Shown here: positions 1 through 22,121 of the stretch, piece after piece
Layout of the letters: every line of letters starts with the position of its first letter
Numbering within the stretch: the stretch's first letter is position 1
Assembly: GCF_058153355.1 (NCBI RefSeq)
Contig: NZ_CM177019.1
DNA length: 64,000 bases
Reading direction: 5' to 3' (one strand)
Notes under the pieces: model-generated
What the model saw: only the letters and a program-made list of their open reading frames with translations
What the model was told of the DNA's origin: nothing
The model's database searches: none
Program-made: the position numbers and the translations under genes

Positions 1-610
1 TAGCTGTGAAGCAAATTAGTCCCAGCGTTTTGACATATCCTCTGGCGGAAATAAAGGTCAGTACTATTGCCCAGACTAACAAAGCCCACCAACCGCTAAA
101 GGGCAAAGGGTGATCGGTCGGTGTTATCGCTTCTAAATTATTCCCCGTCAGACGATTATCAATATCGCTTATTCCCTTTTGCAAGCCGCCAGCAAGGTCG
201 CCATTTTTAAATGCCGGAATAATACTGTTGCGAATAATTTTCCCGGACTGCGCATCCGTAATAACGCCTTCCAGTCCGTAACCGATTTCAATACGCACGG
301 TATGATCCTGCCAGGCGACTAACAGTAGAACGCCATCATCGCGGTCTTTATCACCCGGTTTCCAGCTATCGAATACCCGCGTAGCGTACTGCTCGATGGT
401 TTCATCGCCCGTTGTTTCAACCACTAACACGACCAGTTGTGCGTGGCTTTTTTGCATCAGCTCTTTAATCTGATTGGTCAACGTATTTACTTCATCGTTC
501 GTCAATTTGCCGGTTAAGTCATTCACATACCTGGGTGATTCAGGTACTGGAATTTGTATGGCAAACACAGATGAACAAAAGAAAGCCATAAGGAAGATAA
601 AATTTCGCAC
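1..610 (-). CDS. ygcG: TPM-domain protein (YgcG-like), partial; 3' end runs off the window edge
   Basis: Minus-strand frame open to position 1; GTG start at 610 preceded by GAGGAAG; N-terminus MRNFIFLMAFFCSSVFA is signal-peptide-like; not in ORF track because it has no stop in the window. Confidence 0.6.
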   Translation of the reverse strand, partial: MRNFIFLMAFFCSSVFAIQIPVPESPRYVNDLTGKLTNDEVNTLTNQIKELMQKSHAQLVVLVVETTGDETIEQYATRVFDSWKPGDKDRDDGVLLLVAWQDHTVRIEIGYGLEGVITDAQSGKIIRNSIIPAFKNGDLAGGLQKGISDIDNRLTGNNLEAITPTDHPLPFSGWWALLVWAIVLTFISARGYVKTLGLICFTA

Positions 611-623
611 AGGACTTCCTCGC

Positions 624-1226
624 TTAATGAGCATTAGCATTCTGGCTAAAATCTATTGTTGGGGTTTTACTCACAGCGGCGACATCATCCGGCAAATAAT
701 TTTTCTTCGGTGTGTAATCCATGACTTTTGCGGTTAACACTGCGGGGAATTTGCGGATAGTGACATTATATTGTTCGATGGCTTTAATATATCTTCCTCG
801 CGCAACGGCAATTCGATTTTCACTTCCTTCGAGCTGTACCATCAAATTTTGATAGAGTTCCTGGGCCTTTAGCTCAGGGTAACGTTCACTAATTATCGTT
901 AACTGACCGAGAGTGCGAGACACCTGCGCCTGAGCTTGTTGCCAGGTTTGTAATTTTTGTTCATCTCCCGGAGTTTGCTGAAGAGCACTACTGGCGCGAT
1001 TAGCCTGACTACGTGCCAATGTTACGGCTTCCAGTACCTCTTGTTCATGGCTGGAATAACCTTTAATACTGGCGACAAGATTAGGAATAAGATCGGCGCG
1101 ACGTTGATATTGATTTAATACCTCAGACCAGGAAGCGTTAACCTGCTCATCATAGGTTTGAATATCGTTATATCCACAGCCTGATAAATTGAAAATAAAT
1201 ATAATTACGATGAATATTCTGAGCAT
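624..1226 (-). CDS. LemA-family protein, probable lipoprotein
   Basis: 200 aa ORF with N-terminal hydrophobic segment ending LSGC (lipobox-like); sits 13 bp upstream of the TPM gene, a common LemA-TPM pairing. Confidence 0.7.
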   Translation of the reverse strand: MLRIFIVIIFIFNLSGCGYNDIQTYDEQVNASWSEVLNQYQRRADLIPNLVASIKGYSSHEQEVLEAVTLARSQANRASSALQQTPGDEQKLQTWQQAQAQVSRTLGQLTIISERYPELKAQELYQNLMVQLEGSENRIAVARGRYIKAIEQYNVTIRKFPAVLTAKVMDYTPKKNYLPDDVAAVSKTPTIDFSQNANAH

Positions 1227-1398: not shown

Positions 1399-2070
1399 AT
1401 GCAGTACCCGATTAACGAGATGTTCCAGACCCTGCAAGGTGAGGGTTACTTTACCGGCGTCCCCGCCATTTTTATTCGTTTACAGGGATGCCCGGTCGGC
1501 TGTGCCTGGTGCGACACCAAACACACCTGGGAAAAGCTTGAGGATCGGGAAGTCTCCCTTTTCAGCATTCTGGCGAAGACCAAAGAGAGTGATAAGTGGG
1601 GGGCGGCGAGCAGTGAAGATTTGCTGGCTGTCATTGGTCGTCAGGGATACACCGCGCGGCATGTGGTGATTACGGGTGGTGAGCCTTGCATTCATGATTT
1701 GCTGCCACTGACTGACCTGCTCGAAAAGAACGGTTTTAGCTGCCAGATCGAAACCAGCGGTACTCATGAAGTACGCTGCACGCCGAATACCTGGGTTACC
1801 GTATCGCCAAAGCTGAACATGCGCGGCGGCTATGAAGTGTTGTCACAGGCACTGGAGCGAGCCAACGAAATCAAGCATCCAGTGGGACGCGTACGTGATA
1901 TTGAAGCACTGGATGAACTATTGGCGACGCTGACCGATGATAAACCACGAGTCATTGCACTGCAGCCAATTAGCCAAAAGGATGATGCCACACGTTTGTG
2001 CATTGAAACTTGCATTGCGCGTAACTGGCGTTTGTCGATGCAAACACATAAATATTTAAATATTGCCTGA
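1399..2070 (+). CDS. queE: 7-carboxy-7-deazaguanine synthase QueE (radical SAM)
   Basis: 223 aa ORF; N-terminus MQYPINEMFQTLQGEGYFTGVPAIFIRLQGCPVGCAWCDTKHTW carries the cysteine motif. Confidence 0.9.
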   Translation: MQYPINEMFQTLQGEGYFTGVPAIFIRLQGCPVGCAWCDTKHTWEKLEDREVSLFSILAKTKESDKWGAASSEDLLAVIGRQGYTARHVVITGGEPCIHDLLPLTDLLEKNGFSCQIETSGTHEVRCTPNTWVTVSPKLNMRGGYEVLSQALERANEIKHPVGRVRDIEALDELLATLTDDKPRVIALQPISQKDDATRLCIETCIARNWRLSMQTHKYLNIA

Positions 2071-2353
2071 CAGGTAATGTGAGTAGAGGTTGTGACGATT
2101 AAGCCTCTACTCTTACATCAATCTGTAAATGCCCCATTTTCTCCTCTCTTTGGTCCGACTCCGCAATTTCGTATATTTTTCAATAGTGTTAATGTTTTGT
2201 CCAAGTAAAAATTACCAGACATTCGGAGGTTTTTAACTAACATTTATAGTGGGTAAATTGGTGGGATACGCTTAACCTTAAAAAATCAATATAAACAATA
2301 GGTTATGATTGGTGTTTGTCTTATCGGATGAACTAATTTAAATGGAGTACTAA

Positions 2354-2617
2354 ATGGCTACTTTAATGGAAAAAGATTCTCTCCTGAATGGCGTAAGTCA
2401 AAATATTGCATTTTTATCAAATGTATCAGAAATGATTTACAAGTCCCAGAATGAAGAATTACAAAAGGAGATATATGAATTGGTGAGTTATAGAGACTAT
2501 TTATATTCAACAGGCCATGAACTCGTTGATTTCAAGGAAGGAGTATTGCGATTTCAGCAAGTTAGAAAAAAATACATGCAGGATCTAAAAGCGCTAGGTT
2601 ATCCCGCAACCAATTGA
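2354..2617 (+). CDS. hypothetical small protein in an AT-rich intergenic islet
   Basis: 87 aa ORF in a markedly AT-rich segment (about 2100-2790); no recognisable motif. Confidence 0.3.
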   Translation: MATLMEKDSLLNGVSQNIAFLSNVSEMIYKSQNEELQKEIYELVSYRDYLYSTGHELVDFKEGVLRFQQVRKKYMQDLKALGYPATN

Positions 2618-2797
2618 TAAATATGTCTTTATATTAATTTTAGGATGTGGATAACCTGCTGAAATTTATATTAAAAATGAAATAAAAATATTAAATTCAT
2701 ATCATGCTTGCGTTTTGTTCTCGATAACGCGTAATTTTGTTGAATGCTTTCTCCTGTGAATGCAAAACCAGGCAGTTTCCCGCCCGGCCTTCCTCAC

Positions 2798-4282
2798 TTA
2801 CGCATTCGACCAGCTCTGGATCGAATCTTCATTCCCCAGCTCACCATGCATCACTTCATACGATTTTTTCAGGATCACATCAGTGTGTTTGGTTAGGTCT
2901 TTGAAAATGCCTTTATTCATCGCGTCGTAGCGTTTGGCGTTGCTCTCAACAGGCATAAAGATATCTTTCACGCGAACCATTTTGTCGACAGCCGTTGCGT
3001 AATCCGGGTATAGCCCCAGACCTACCGCCGTATTAATCGCTGCCCCCAGGCTTGCACAACCGTTAATGGCGTTACGTCGTGCCGGAAGGTTGAACACGTC
3101 GGCAAAAATTTGCATAAACAGATCGCTGTTCGAACCGCCGCCAGTAATGATCACATGTTTCGCAAAGTGATTCATTTCATGACACATATTGTCGTAATTG
3201 TTCTTCAGCGTCAGCGTCAGCGCCACGCTTTCCAGTATCGAACGATATATCCATGCGTAATCCATGCTGGAATCAAAGCCGATCATAATCCCGCGTTTGT
3301 ACGGTTCCCACGGATTGGTCAGCCAGTCCAGCACCGTCATCAGACCATTACAGCCAGGCGGCACACAACAAGCTTTTTTGTTGAGCAAATCTTCCGGTGA
3401 AAGATCCTGCGCCCTGGCATCCTGAATTAACGATTCGCCTAGCATGTCGCGCAGCCAACTCACCGTCCACATGCCTTTGCGAATACCGTAACCTTCATAC
3501 AGCAAGGTTTGCGGAATAGAAGACATAATCGGCCAGTACGCTACCGGATCTTTCGGCAGTACTTTGCCGTTCATCATCAACGCGATGTAAGTGCCAAGAG
3601 AAATTACCGCAGTTTCATCATCCAGTAACCCGGCTCCCAGTGCTTCTACCGGTTTATCACTGGTGGTACAAACAACCGGCAGCCCAGCCGGGAAATGTGT
3701 CGCCAGCGCGGCTTGTGGTGTGATATGCCCAAGAACAGTGCCCGGCATTTGCACATCAAAAAGCATCTGTTGGGGAATATTAAACTTCTCCATTACCGCG
3801 GTATCTTCGCTCCATGCCCAGGTCTTATAATCCACCGGCCACTGACCAAAATAGTTGGCGATATTGTCTTTAAACTCGCCGGTTAAACGGTGTGTCAGAT
3901 AACCTGAAAAAGAGGTGACATATGCCACATCAGGATTGGTGTGCTCGTAGGGACGTGTTACGCGTGCATCCTGCCAGCTAATCAACGGCGCAGCTGGCGT
4001 GCCATCGGCTTTCAATAACGCACGGCAGCAACGGATAGATCCCAGACCAATGCCGACAATATCTTCTTTATTCCCGGCAAACTGGCTCATCAAATCGTGA
4101 CCAGCAAAACATAATGATGCCCATAAATCATCGTCAGGATGTTCTGCGGTATCGGCATCTGGAGTGTGCATCGGTTGTAATAAGCCTTTGCCTTCGCAAA
4201 CCACGTTACCTTCCAGATCGTACATCACCACTTTTGTGCTCTGACTTCCGCCATCAATCCCTATGATGTATTTTTTCGACAT
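2798..4282 (-). CDS. ygcE: FGGY-family carbohydrate kinase
   Basis: 494 aa ORF; N-terminal IGIDGGSQSTK kinase signature. Confidence 0.85.
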   Translation of the reverse strand: MSKKYIIGIDGGSQSTKVVMYDLEGNVVCEGKGLLQPMHTPDADTAEHPDDDLWASLCFAGHDLMSQFAGNKEDIVGIGLGSIRCCRALLKADGTPAAPLISWQDARVTRPYEHTNPDVAYVTSFSGYLTHRLTGEFKDNIANYFGQWPVDYKTWAWSEDTAVMEKFNIPQQMLFDVQMPGTVLGHITPQAALATHFPAGLPVVCTTSDKPVEALGAGLLDDETAVISLGTYIALMMNGKVLPKDPVAYWPIMSSIPQTLLYEGYGIRKGMWTVSWLRDMLGESLIQDARAQDLSPEDLLNKKACCVPPGCNGLMTVLDWLTNPWEPYKRGIMIGFDSSMDYAWIYRSILESVALTLTLKNNYDNMCHEMNHFAKHVIITGGGSNSDLFMQIFADVFNLPARRNAINGCASLGAAINTAVGLGLYPDYATAVDKMVRVKDIFMPVESNAKRYDAMNKGIFKDLTKHTDVILKKSYEVMHGELGNEDSIQSWSNA

Positions 4283-19259: not shown

Positions 19260-20936
19260 GTGACTTTCTTTGATTTCTGGGGAAAAACCCGACGTGGCGA
19301 GAAAGAGGGTGGCGACGATTATCACCTTCTTTGCTGGCATTCGCTGGATGTAGCCGCGATAGGCTATTTAATGGTCAAAAACAACTGTTTCGGGCTGGCT
19401 GACTATTTTCGTCAATTAGGTTTCGCTGACACGGATCAGGCAGCACAATTTTTCGCCTGGTTGTTGTGCTGGCACGATACTGGAAAATTTGCCCGCTCAT
19501 TTCAGCAACTTTACCTGCACCCACAACTCAAGGTTCCGGAAGGCGCAAGAAAGAATTACGAAAAGATCTCTCATTCAACGCTGGGTTACTGGTTGTGGCA
19601 TCATTATTTAATTGAATGTGAAGAGTTGCTTCCTTCATCTTCACTCTCTTTGCGCAAACTTAAACGGGTAATAGATATGTGGATGCCCGTGACGACCGGG
19701 CATCATGGTCGGCCTCCTGACCGTATCGATGAACTGGACAACTTTCTACCTGAAGACAAAGCTGCCGCACGAGATTTTCTCCTTGAAATCAAGGTACTGT
19801 TTCCGCTCATCGAGATCCCTACATTCTGGGATGATGACGAGGGCGTTGAACTTATAAAACATCTTTCCTGGTATATATCTGCAACCGTCGTACTCGCAGA
19901 CTGGACGGGATCGTCAACGCGGTTTTTTCCACGCGTCGCACATGTAATGGATATTAAAGATTACTGGCAGAATGCTTTAGCTCAGGCTCAAAACGCATTA
20001 ACCGTCTTTCCTCCAAAAGCAGAAACCGCACCTTTCACTGGAATTAACACGCTGTTTCCTTTTATTGAGAACCCAACACCGTTACAGCAAAAGGTGCTGG
20101 ATCTGGATATCAGCCAGCCAGGACCGCAGTTGTTTATTCTGGAAGATGTGACTGGCGCAGGTAAAACAGAAGCGGCGCTTATCTTGGCGCACAGGTTGAT
20201 GTCTGCGGGGAAAGCACAGGGTTTGTTTTTTGGCCTGCCAACAATGGCAACGGCCAATGCCATGTACGATAGGCTGGTAAAAACCTAGCTTGCTTTCTAT
20301 TCGCCACAATCCCGCCCCAGCCTGGTGCTGGCACACAGCGCTCGTTCGCTAATGGATCGCTTTAACGCATCGCTGTGGTCTGGTGATTTTGTGGGGTCAG
20401 AAGAACCGGATGAACAAGCGTTCAGTCAGGGATGTGCGGCCTGGTTTGCTGACAGTAACAAGAAGGCGTTGCTGGCTGAAATTGGCGTCGGCACGCTGGA
20501 TCAGGCGATGATGGCGGTGATGCCGTTCAAACATAATAATCTGCGGCTTCTGGGGCTGAGTAACAAAATCCTGCTAGCCGATGAGATCCACGCCTGTGAC
20601 GCTTATATGTCGTGCATTCTTGAAGGGCTGATCGAGCGGCAGGCGCGTGGCGGAAACAGCGTTATTTTGCTTTCTGCTACGTTGTCTCAACAGCAGCGTG
20701 ACAAACTCGTCGCCGCCTTTGCGCGTGGTGCAGAGGGCCAGCAAGAAGCTCCGTTGCTGGAAAAAGATGATTATCCCTGGCTGACGCATGTCACGAAATC
20801 CGATGTGCATTCGCACCGGGTAGCGACGCGCAAAGACGTTGAGCGCAGCGTGAGTGTGGGTTGGCTTCATAGCGAACAAGAGTGTATTGCGCGTATCGAA
20901 TCGGCGGTAAGGTGTTCCCCGCGCCAGCGGGGATAA
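19260..20936 (+). pseudogene. cas3: cas3 (type I-E) pseudogene: in-frame TAG at 20286-20288 and 3' truncation into a CRISPR repeat
   Basis: HD-nuclease motifs (WHSLDVAA, WHDTGKF) and helicase Walker A (TGAGKTEAAL); ORFs 19260-20288 and 20325-20936 are in the same frame separated by one amber codon; the frame ends inside the first repeat; total about 557 codons versus about 890 expected. Confidence 0.75.
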
Positions 20937-21062
20937 ACCGTCGACAATGGATAAGTTGACTTCAGGTCTGGGGAGTTCCCCGCGCTAGCGGGAATAAACC
21001 GTGCAGTACGCCTGATGACAAACCAAGCATCGGGAGTTCCCCCGCGTCAGCGGGGGAACTCC
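20912..21062 (+). CRISPR. minimal type I-E CRISPR array: 3 repeats, 2 spacers of 32 bp; last repeat degenerate
   Basis: Repeats gtgttccccgcgccagcggggataaaccg (20912-20940), gagttccccgcgctagcgggaataaaccg (20973-21001), degenerate gagttcccccgcgtcagcgggggaactc (from 21034); spacers 20941-20972 and 21002-21033. Confidence 0.85.
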
Positions 21063-21083: not shown

Positions 21084-22121
21084 TCATGACGCCTTCGCCA
21101 GTTCCTTCACTAGCGGTAGCATTATCCGCATAACGTCACGGCAGCGACGTTCTATTCTTCCAGGAAGCGCCTTATCAATATGCTGTTGATTATCAAGCCT
21201 TACATCATGCCAGCTATTTCCCGCCGGGAAGGCCGGTGTTTTTGCGCGTTGCTGATAACCATCCTTATTTCCAAGATTCCAGTTGGTCGCCTCCACCGAA
21301 AGTACCGCAATACCGGCTTTGTCGAAAACTTCTGCATCGTTACAACACCCAGTGCCTTTCGGATAGTTTTTATTCAAACCTGGATTTGTTGTCGCTGCAA
21401 TCCCATGATTATGCGCAATTGCCAGCGCTCGATCACGGGTTAATTTCCTGACAGCCTCTGGTGTATTTACACCACTATTAAAATACAATTTATCGCCAAC
21501 AATTAAGTTATCGAGATTAATCACCAGCAGCGTATTTTTCTTTTCAGTATCGCTCATGCGCTTGAGTAAATTCTCAGCGCCTAATTTCCCTTCTTCTTCT
21601 CCACTGGTTGCCACAAAACGAATACCATACTCGGTAGGCGTATTTTTCAGACGTTCAGCCAGTTCCAGCATGACACCTAAACCTGCGGCGTTATCATCCA
21701 TTCCTTGTAATGTCAGCCCGCCGAGATTGGCATCGGCGTCGGCATCGCTCAGTGGAGCGTACGTATCAAGATGCGCCATAATAATGATCTGCTGCGGCGC
21801 TTTGCCTTCATGAGCGGCAATCACCGTACTTCCCGTCACGTTGTGCCAGTTTTTGCGGTTATCGCGGGCGGTGTAAATATATCGGCTATTAAATGTCCGA
21901 ATATCACTGCGATAACCCATCTGTTGAAACTGTTGGCGAATATAATCGGCAGATAACATTTCTGCAGGAGTTCCGGTCATGCGTCCCGGAAAGAAAGTAG
22001 CAATATGTCGTGCCTGTGTATTAGCAAAATCACCAGGTTTAGGTGACGAGGCGTGTACGGGGAGAATAAAGCATACGCCGAGCGCCAGGGCAGCGGTACG
22101 GTGGCGCAATGCGGAAAACAT
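21084..22121 (-). CDS. iap: alkaline phosphatase isozyme conversion aminopeptidase
   Basis: 345 aa ORF with signal peptide; position next to the CRISPR array as in K-12. Confidence 0.85.
   Translation of the reverse strand: MFSALRHRTAALALGVCFILPVHASSPKPGDFANTQARHIATFFPGRMTGTPAEMLSADYIRQQFQQMGYRSDIRTFNSRYIYTARDNRKNWHNVTGSTVIAAHEGKAPQQIIIMAHLDTYAPLSDADADANLGGLTLQGMDDNAAGLGVMLELAERLKNTPTEYGIRFVATSGEEEGKLGAENLLKRMSDTEKKNTLLVINLDNLIVGDKLYFNSGVNTPEAVRKLTRDRALAIAHNHGIAATTNPGLNKNYPKGTGCCNDAEVFDKAGIAVLSVEATNWNLGNKDGYQQRAKTPAFPAGNSWHDVRLDNQQHIDKALPGRIERRCRDVMRIMLPLVKELAKAS

What the first reader, a model, noticed from the sequence alone, without database searches (positions are those of the whole stretch)
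2100..2790. AT-rich intergenic islet with a small ORF downstream of queE
The segment between queE and ygcE is strongly AT-rich relative to its flanks and holds an 87 aa ORF (2354-2617) with no recognisable motif. AT-rich islands of this kind are often horizontally acquired or H-NS-bound and may encode small proteins or regulatory RNAs.
Basis: seen in the sequence. Interest (0 to 1): 0.3.

Follow-up and report, generated by a model that had tools for sequence, protein, structure and literature searches.

The report
Orphan EzeT-type antitoxin gene replacing CRISPR-II
The AT-rich gap between queE and ygcE holds a real, selectively maintained 87-codon gene: a stand-alone copy of the antitoxin half of the E. 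coli zeta-toxin system EzeT, with no toxin beside it, in the slot where most E. coli keep a CRISPR array. This makes it an ordinary kind of object (an orphan antitoxin) that had not been annotated.

Summary
Bases 2071-2767 have 32% G+C against 52% for the window, the lowest of any stretch that size, and ORF 2354-2617 (87 aa) is intact.

The segment is not a typical E. coli intergenic region. It replaces the whole CRISPR-II locus (leader plus the CRISPR2.3/2.2 arrays) found there in most E. coli genomes. Only 8 of 5,426 complete genomes carry a relative, at about 79% identity.

The ORF is a gene. Alleles in E. coli, Escherichia sp. E1V33 and E. fergusonii keep 87 codons, apart from a truncated E. 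fergusonii copy. dN/dS is 0.11-0.18 with dS up to about 0.8.

The protein is 55% identical, without gaps, to residues 1-78 of EzeT (WP_000212693.1). That region is the experimentally defined antitoxin domain, which also works in trans. It is 66% identical over its full length to free-standing antitoxins that overlap separate zeta-toxin genes on mobile elements. The predicted fold is a three-helix bundle, and the best PDB match is the antitoxin PezA.

No kinase remnant is present. The best reading is an orphan antitoxin left by toxin loss, probably neutralising EzeT-family kinases in trans. That activity is untested.

Novelty: new member of a known kind. Interest is modest.

The parts
2071..2767 (.). 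Strain-specific AT-rich segment (32.4% G+C). It replaces the CRISPR-II leader and arrays of typical E. coli.
   Evidence: Similarity to typical E. coli loci stops exactly at the queE stop codon (2070) and resumes at 2768. No I-E repeat lies inside it. It is the lowest-G+C stretch of the window. Bases 2071-2353 have no match in 5,426 E. coli genomes even in distant mode.
2076..2120 (+). Stable hairpin just after queE. It may be a queE terminator or attenuator, but no U-tract follows it.
   Evidence: Folding energy is -21.5 kcal/mol with z = -4.9, and 0 of 200 shuffles fold as well. It is conserved in L013. The terminator scan did not call it.
2304..2309 (+). Candidate -10 hexamer TATGAT for the small gene, with no convincing -35 (inferred).
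   Evidence: T, A, T, A and T of this hexamer are invariant (TATTAT in L001 and L015), while the rest of the upstream region aligns poorly. The consensus scan found no full sigma-70 site upstream of the ORF. ezeT itself is reported to have a -10 without a -35 (PMC4803016).
2344..2347 (+). Shine-Dalgarno GGAG, 6 nt before the ATG.
   Evidence: Position. DNA homology with ezeT (AGGAG) runs through this site into the start codon.
2354..2617 (+). 87-aa orphan antitoxin gene, a homologue of the EzeT N-terminal antitoxin domain.
2618..2767 (.). 26% G+C spacer in the position where the toxin gene lies in bicistronic relatives. No coding remnant is detectable.
   Evidence: tblastn with EzeT and with two free-standing zeta toxins found nothing better than E = 0.17 in this stretch or in L013 and L001. 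DNA homology to the L019 module ends at 2609, about where its toxin ORF begins.
2768..2797 (-). Intrinsic terminator of ygcE: a hairpin followed by UUUU on the minus strand. This is the right-hand boundary of the islet.
   Evidence: On the minus strand the folding energy is -24.7 kcal/mol with z = -4.2. The plus strand does not fold better than shuffles. Homology to typical E. coli resumes here.

Best explanation
ORF 2354-2617 is a solo (orphan) antitoxin of the EzeT/zeta-toxin family. Its ancestor was the first gene of a two-gene antitoxin plus zeta-kinase module of the type still found on conjugative elements. The kinase gene was lost, and the antitoxin has been kept at the queE-ygcE locus of several Escherichia lineages under purifying selection.

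By analogy with EzeT(1-82), which blocks the UDP-GlcNAc kinase domain in cis and in trans, the 87-aa three-helix protein most likely binds EzeT-family kinases encoded elsewhere. Candidates are the ezeT gene next to lysC, present in about a quarter of E. coli, or incoming plasmid and ICE modules. Binding would prevent toxic phosphorylation of the cell-wall precursor, which is an 'anti-addiction' or immunity role.

Shown here: homology, fold, absence of a toxin in cis, selection, and synteny. Inferred: toxin binding, the target, expression, and the order of events.

In this genome the islet takes the place of CRISPR-II, alongside a decayed I-E cas locus. No functional link to CRISPR is implied.
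For: Identity of the reference protein. EzeT is WP_000212693.1 (PMC10532202), which is the 308-aa protein annotated next to lysC in L009. Its Zeta_toxin Pfam domain covers residues 101-282. EzeT(1-82) neutralises EzeTdeltaN83 in trans (PMC4803016).

Homology. ORF87 aligns without gaps to EzeT residues 1-78 at 55% identity. Identity is 20/23 in residues 1-23 and 16/18 in residues 43-60. The DNA homology includes the ribosome-binding site.

Free-standing relatives. P0022 and P0023 overlap by 11 bp the start of separate Zeta_toxin genes that are 68% identical to EzeT residues 85-304. Their contexts are a conjugative element and a plasmid. ORF87 shares its C-terminal LGYPA tail and its stop position with P0022.

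Family census in species-representative genomes: 3 fused, 6 paired with an intact kinase plus 1 with a decayed one, and 4 solo with adequate flanks. ORF87 keeps every family-wide conserved residue.

Structure. The model is a three-helix bundle. PezA is the top hit of 48,164 PDB chains.

Selection and synteny. dN/dS is 0.11-0.18 across alleles with dS of 0.26-0.79. All alleles are solo, all lie downstream of queE, and all share the downstream flank.

No toxin in cis. No kinase remnant occurs in the window or in allelic loci.
Against: No experiment and no expression data are available, and no clear promoter was found.

No cognate toxin can be shown in this genome, because the window is only 64 kb. 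Co-occurrence with ezeT is loose: 5 of 8 complete genomes carrying the homologue also have ezeT, against 26% overall. The Escherichia sp. E1V33 representative yielded only this one family member.

ORF87 is only 55% identical to the EzeT antitoxin domain, and its middle part (residues 24-42) is unrelated. Cross-neutralisation is therefore uncertain, and antitoxin specificity is often narrow.

The E. fergusonii allele carries two premature stops, so the gene is dispensable in at least one lineage.

Confidence: 0.6

Rival explanations
1. The gene is an evolutionary relic. It is a former antitoxin with no current partner or function, or it has been co-opted for a job unrelated to zeta kinases, such as a small regulator or adaptor.
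For: No toxin lies in cis. The link with ezeT presence is not strict. The E. fergusonii copy is truncated by stop codons. Residues 24-42 have diverged completely from EzeT. Orphan antitoxins are abundant in E. coli and are mostly uncharacterised (PMC10790755).
Against: A functionless relic is hard to reconcile with dN/dS of 0.11-0.18 over dS up to about 0.8 and a preserved 87-codon frame in three allele classes. The residues kept are exactly the family-wide ones, which are also kept in toxin-linked members. That pattern argues for a retained toxin-binding surface rather than a new function.
Confidence: 0.25
2. It is a 5' fragment (pseudogene) of a fused ezeT-like gene whose kinase part was deleted.
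For: The first 78 residues and the ribosome-binding site align with ezeT. Many truncated 'zeta toxin, partial' entries exist.
Against: ORF87 is closer to free-standing antitoxins (66% against 55%). It shares their C-terminal tail and natural stop position, which EzeT lacks. The truncated entries are contig-end or frameshift artefacts of ezeT at lysC. ORF87 is under purifying selection.
Confidence: 0.08
3. The segment is non-coding AT-rich spacer, H-NS-bound or encoding a regulatory RNA, and the ORF is a chance one.
For: It has the lowest G+C in the window. An ORF this long arises in 3.3% of shuffles. No clear promoter or terminator was found for the ORF.
Against: Homology to EzeT at E = 2e-26. 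Strong excess of synonymous changes, with substitutions at codon positions 1/2/3 of 8/8/26. Confident fold prediction. No Rfam match.
Confidence: 0.03

Closest known systems
EzeT of Escherichia coli (WP_000212693.1), N-terminal cis-acting antitoxin domain, residues 1-82 (Rocker & Meinhart 2015, as reported in PMC4803016, PMC4826407 and PMC10532202)
   Same: Clear sequence homology over residues 1-78, including the MATLMEKD N-terminus and the SYRDYLYST..ELVDF block. The ribosome-binding site is homologous. Both are helical domains of the same size. The EzeT domain is known to work as a separate polypeptide.
   Different: ORF87 is a separate 87-aa protein, not fused to a kinase. It lies at queE-ygcE rather than next to lysC. 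Its C-terminal tail differs, and its middle segment is unrelated. Activity is untested.
Free-standing antitoxins of bicistronic EzeT-like zeta modules on mobile elements (P0022 in L019, P0023 in L020; uncharacterised)
   Same: Same length. 66% and 59% identity. P0022 has the same C-terminal LGYPA tail and stop position. These are the likely ancestral form.
   Different: Those genes overlap a downstream zeta-kinase gene. ORF87 has 150 bp of 26% G+C spacer there and no kinase remnant.
Epsilon and PezA antitoxins of the epsilon/zeta and PezAT systems (PDB 2p5t)
Chromosomal anti-addiction modules and orphan antitoxins (for example ccdEch against F-plasmid ccd; PMC2654758; surveys PMC10790755 and PMC7354431)
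   Same: A chromosomal antitoxin related to toxin-antitoxin modules on mobile elements, and the concept of neutralisation in trans.
   Different: ccdEch is a complete toxin-antitoxin pair. Here only the antitoxin remains, and protection has not been shown.
CRISPR-II locus (CRISPR2.2/2.3 plus leader) between ygcE and ygcF/queE in E. coli (PMC3903273)
   Same: Same chromosomal slot. In the E. fergusonii-like alleles the gene lies next to the array.
   Different: The window has no leader and no repeat there. The published survey reported essentially invariant flanks at this locus, so this layout is a rare variant.

Membership tests
EzeT-type (MATLMEKD) antitoxin domain family | Significant sequence homology to the experimentally defined antitoxin domain EzeT(1-82) | tested here: met
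   BLASTP gives 43/78 identical residues, no gaps, E = 2e-26. The profile search recovers fused and free-standing members. All family-invariant residues are retained: M1, T3, L4, M5, L10, plus E6, K7, L43, L50, Y51, D59 and Y74.
EzeT-type (MATLMEKD) antitoxin domain family | Small all-helical (three-helix bundle) fold like the epsilon and PezA antitoxins | tested here: met
EzeT-type (MATLMEKD) antitoxin domain family | Genetic linkage to a zeta-toxin kinase, either fused or immediately downstream | tested here: not met
   There is no Zeta_toxin homology in the 64-kb window or downstream of any ORF87 allele. This makes it an orphan member, not a complete toxin-antitoxin module.
EzeT-type (MATLMEKD) antitoxin domain family | Neutralises the UDP-GlcNAc kinase activity or toxicity of the partner | not testable with these tools
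   Requires co-expression or rescue experiments, or binding assays.
Complete type II epsilon/zeta (PezAT) toxin-antitoxin module | Presence of both a toxin gene and an antitoxin gene in one operon | tested here: not met
   Only the antitoxin homologue is present.
Epsilon antitoxin (Pfam PF08998) / PezA | Match to the curated sequence model | tested here: not met
   The Pfam scan returned only DUF5452, at 16.3 bits against a cutoff of 27. NCBIfam returned nothing.
CRISPR-II locus of E. coli | Type I-E repeats and the CRISPR2.3 leader between queE and ygcE | tested here: not met
   No repeat with up to 3 mismatches lies in 2071-2797. There is no similarity to the leader or array regions of L002 and L003.

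The most novel reading that the evidence does not exclude
The solo antitoxin is an actively maintained immunity gene. It has been kept in the chromosome since before the divergence of Escherichia species, and it disarms zeta-kinase addiction or abortive-infection modules carried by incoming conjugative elements, or the resident cold-active EzeT. The toxin-less homologues on small mobilisable pB1000-type plasmids, which sit next to a solo VbhA antitoxin, would do the same job for the plasmid. Together they would form a class of portable 'anti-toxin-antitoxin' cassettes.
Probability: 0.25. Interest if true: 0.55.

Novelty: new member of a known kind. Interest (0 to 1): 0.35.

Why it matters
The finding gives a name and a testable function to a gene annotated everywhere as 'hypothetical protein'.

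It supplies the missing two-gene relatives that support the proposal that EzeT arose by fusion of a bicistronic operon.

It defines an antitoxin family with the MATLMEKD N-terminus that Pfam, NCBIfam and PADLOC do not cover. That family occurs in Proteobacteria, Campylobacterota and Spirochaetes.

It documents a rare allele of the E. coli CRISPR-II typing locus in which the array and leader are absent altogether. This matters for CRISPR-based typing schemes that assume conserved flanks.

If the protein does neutralise EzeT-family kinases in trans, it would be a clean natural case of an antitoxin kept long after toxin loss.

Tried and rejected
- **Curated libraries on ORF87.** Pfam, NCBIfam and PADLOC gave nothing usable.
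- **Rfam on 1800-3000 at E <= 1.** No match, so a known regulatory RNA is not supported.
- **Promoter and terminator scan.** No plus-strand promoter upstream of the ORF and no terminator were called. The only supported signals are the conserved -10-like hexamer, the SD, and the minus-strand ygcE terminator.
- **Search for a toxin remnant.** tblastn with EzeT and two free-standing zeta toxins, plus an HMM of four kinase domains, found nothing in the window, L013, L001 or L015.
- **Origin of the upstream 283 bp (2071-2353).** No match in 5,426 E. coli genomes in distant mode, and no match to the L019 module beyond 10 nt upstream of the ATG. Its origin is unexplained.
- **Co-occurrence test with a concatenated query.** The result is usable but small: 5 of 8 genomes. 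Part of the query also matched the universal queD flank, so the 'places' count had to be interpreted by hand.
- **Calibration with cysJ.** An indel put the window copy out of register, so only the non-window pairs were used.
- **Rocker & Meinhart 2015.** The paper is not held in the library. Its results are cited through three open reviews.
- **A functional link to CRISPR.** I considered this because of the gene's position. I rejected it for lack of any evidence beyond adjacency.

Full report
**1. The observation**

queE is 1399-2070 (+) and ygcE, a FGGY kinase, is 2798-4282 (-). The 727 bp between them have 34% G+C. The part specific to this strain, 2071-2767, has 32.4% G+C against 51.9% for the window. 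It is the only place in the 64 kb where a 697-bp stretch falls below 36%.

The ORF at 2354-2617 is 87 codons. It starts at the first ATG after an in-frame TAA, and GGAG lies 6 nt upstream. ORF length alone is not strong evidence: 3.3% of shuffles give an ORF at least that long.

**2. What the segment is relative to other genomes**

The flanks match E. coli at up to 98.5% identity, in 5,422 of 5,426 complete genomes. Bases 2071-2767 match none of them. Similarity stops at the queE stop codon and resumes at 2768, at the ygcE terminator.

In typical E. coli this slot holds 1.1-1.9 kb with the CRISPR-II locus, meaning the leader plus the CRISPR2.3/2.2 arrays (PMC3903273). That paper reports essentially invariant flanks and leaders at this locus.

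The window has no I-E repeat here. Elsewhere in the window the I-E system is decayed:
- a split cas3 remnant lies at 19260-20936;
- it runs into two repeats at 20912-21001 and then iap;
- cse1 through cas2 are absent.

Only 8 of 5,426 complete genomes have a relative of 2333-2793, at about 79% identity. The exact layout of the window (queE, 283 bp, ORF, ygcE, yqcE) recurs in at least 12 other contigs.

**3. The ORF is a gene**

Homologues of exactly 87 aa exist at 99, 90, 82 and 77% identity. Every one that I traced to a contig lies downstream of queE. I found three layouts:
- the window type, with an intact ygcE;
- an Escherichia sp. E1V33-like type (L013, L014, L029), with an internally deleted ygcE-ygcN region;
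- an E. fergusonii-like type (L001, L011, L012, L015), ordered queE, leader, CRISPR, ORF, ygcE 3' remnant, queD.

Nei-Gojobori dN/dS between allele classes is 0.11-0.18, with dS of 0.26-0.79. For window against L001 there are 23.5 synonymous changes on 52 sites and 18.5 non-synonymous changes on 209 sites (Fisher p = 9e-9). Substitutions fall 8/8/26 on codon positions 1/2/3.

The dS between allele classes is at least as large as that of queE or cysJ between the same genomes, which is 0.05-0.56. The solo gene is therefore old at this locus, though only 52 synonymous sites are available. The E. fergusonii copies have two premature stops and encode 75 aa.

**4. What it encodes**

The next-best hits after the 87-aa forms are N-terminal fragments of 'zeta toxin' proteins. 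Those genes lie next to lysC. The full-length 308-aa protein there is WP_000212693.1, which is EzeT itself (PMC10532202). Its Zeta_toxin domain covers residues 101-282.

EzeT residues 1-82 are the cis-acting antitoxin domain. Expressed separately, this domain neutralises the toxic EzeTdeltaN83 (PMC4803016; PMC4826407).

ORF87 aligns without gaps to EzeT residues 1-78 at 55% identity, E = 2e-26. Identity is 20/23 in residues 1-23 and 16/18 in residues 43-60, but only 1/19 in residues 24-42. The DNA homology runs through the Shine-Dalgarno sequence.

A profile search of 1.8 billion representative proteins found 23 relatives. Several findings follow from them:
- P0022 (88 aa) is 66% identical over 86 aa and has the same LGYPA tail. 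P0023 is 82 aa.
- Each of these two overlaps by 11 bp a separate Zeta_toxin gene that is 68% identical to EzeT residues 85-304.
- Their neighbours are a T4SS coupling protein and Toprim genes for one, and ParB and PsiA genes for the other.
- More distant members (P0033, P0037) also precede zeta kinases.

A scan of species-representative genomes gave 16 loci:
- 3 fused;
- 6 paired with an intact kinase;
- 1 paired with a decayed kinase;
- 4 solo with flanks long enough to judge, among them the ORF87 orthologue in Escherichia sp. E1V33 (L029);
- 2 not assessable (an 863-bp contig and a truncated 21-aa copy).

The family signature is M-[AS]-T-L-M-E-K-D..L, then LYS, then DF, then Y. ORF87 keeps all of it.

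**5. No toxin in cis**

tblastn with EzeT and with the two free-standing kinases, plus an HMM of four kinase domains, found nothing in the window or in the allelic loci. DNA homology to the bicistronic module ends at 2609, about where that module's toxin ORF starts. It is followed by 150 bp of 26% G+C and then the ygcE terminator.

**6. Most likely mechanism**

Shown here: the gene is a conserved, free-standing member of the EzeT-type antitoxin family without a linked kinase.

Inferred: it derives from a bicistronic module by loss of the toxin gene. The decayed kinase in L040 shows the same process under way in another lineage.

I also infer that the protein still binds EzeT-family kinases. 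The best-conserved part is the N-terminal helix. In the epsilon/zeta and PezAT structures that element occludes the nucleotide site; this last point comes from established knowledge and was not tested here.

Targets could be the resident ezeT or incoming modules. ezeT is present in 1,433 of 5,426 genomes, and in 5 of the 8 genomes that carry the ORF87 homologue. Neutralising incoming modules would be the anti-addiction role described in PMC2654758.

The link to ezeT is not obligatory. Three of the 8 genomes lack it, and the E1V33 representative yielded no second family member. That fits an immunity role or a relic better than a dedicated regulator of EzeT.

**7. Comparison, novelty and score**

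Orphan antitoxins are common in E. coli (PMC10790755), so the kind is known.

New here:
- the assignment of this 'hypothetical protein' to the EzeT antitoxin family;
- the bicistronic relatives that support the fusion origin proposed for EzeT (PMC4826407);
- a family not covered by Pfam, NCBIfam or PADLOC;
- a CRISPR-II-less allele of the queE-ygcE locus.

I rate it a new member of a known kind, with interest about 0.35.

Noticed in passing
window 19260-21001: Two consecutive ORFs (342 aa and 203 aa) are the split N-terminal two-thirds of Cas3e. They run straight into two I-E repeats (20912-20940 and 20973-21001) and then iap (21084-22121, minus strand). cse1 through cas2 are missing, so the I-E system of this genome is a deletion remnant, and CRISPR-II is absent altogether.
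   Followed up: partly
L022 1791-2194 (pB1000, H. influenzae); L023 2528-2931 (pCCK3259): Small mobilisable Pasteurellaceae resistance plasmids carry a 68-aa solo member of the same antitoxin family. Its N-terminus, MATLMEKDSLINGISQ, is nearly identical to that of ORF87. It is followed directly by a VbhA-family antitoxin gene, and no toxin gene is on the plasmid. This may be an anti-toxin cassette.
   Followed up: partly
L019 2071-3064; L020 4001-5039: These are two-gene versions of EzeT: an 82-88 aa antitoxin overlapping a 245-266 aa zeta kinase that is 68% identical to EzeT residues 85-304. They lie in conjugative-element and plasmid contexts. They look like the unfused ancestors that Rocker & Meinhart postulated.
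   Followed up: partly
L015 5001-5264; L016 643-906 (E. fergusonii): The E. fergusonii allele has two premature stops (codons 76 and 83), leaving a 75-aa product. The near-identical E. coli allele (L001, L011, L012) is intact.
   Followed up: partly
L040 3001-3566 (Conchiformibius MAG); L033 3001-3240 (Neisseria MAG): In L040 a family antitoxin is followed only by a short decayed kinase fragment. The related Neisseria gene in L033 has no kinase at all. Toxin loss that leaves the antitoxin behind seems to recur.
   Followed up: no
L031 202-1128: A contig assigned to a Collinsella MAG (Actinobacteria) encodes a protein identical over the 95 residues shown to E. coli EzeT. This is almost certainly binning contamination.
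   Followed up: no
window 2076-2120: A very stable hairpin (-21.5 kcal/mol) lies right after the queE stop, inside the strain-specific segment, with no U-tract. Typical E. coli have unrelated sequence at this position, so queE 3' end formation may differ between alleles.
   Followed up: partly
window 1-1226 versus L001 2331-2472: The window keeps an intact LemA-family gene (624-1226, minus strand) and a TPM-domain gene upstream of queE. In L001 the LemA gene is reduced to a frameshifted fragment. This neighbourhood is variable on both sides of queE.
   Followed up: no
L015 3288-3959 versus L002 1399-2070: queE of the E. fergusonii record differs from an E. coli queE by dS of only 0.013, while cysJ differs from that of another E. 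coli strain (L001) by about 0.19. This suggests recent inter-species recombination at this locus.
   Followed up: no
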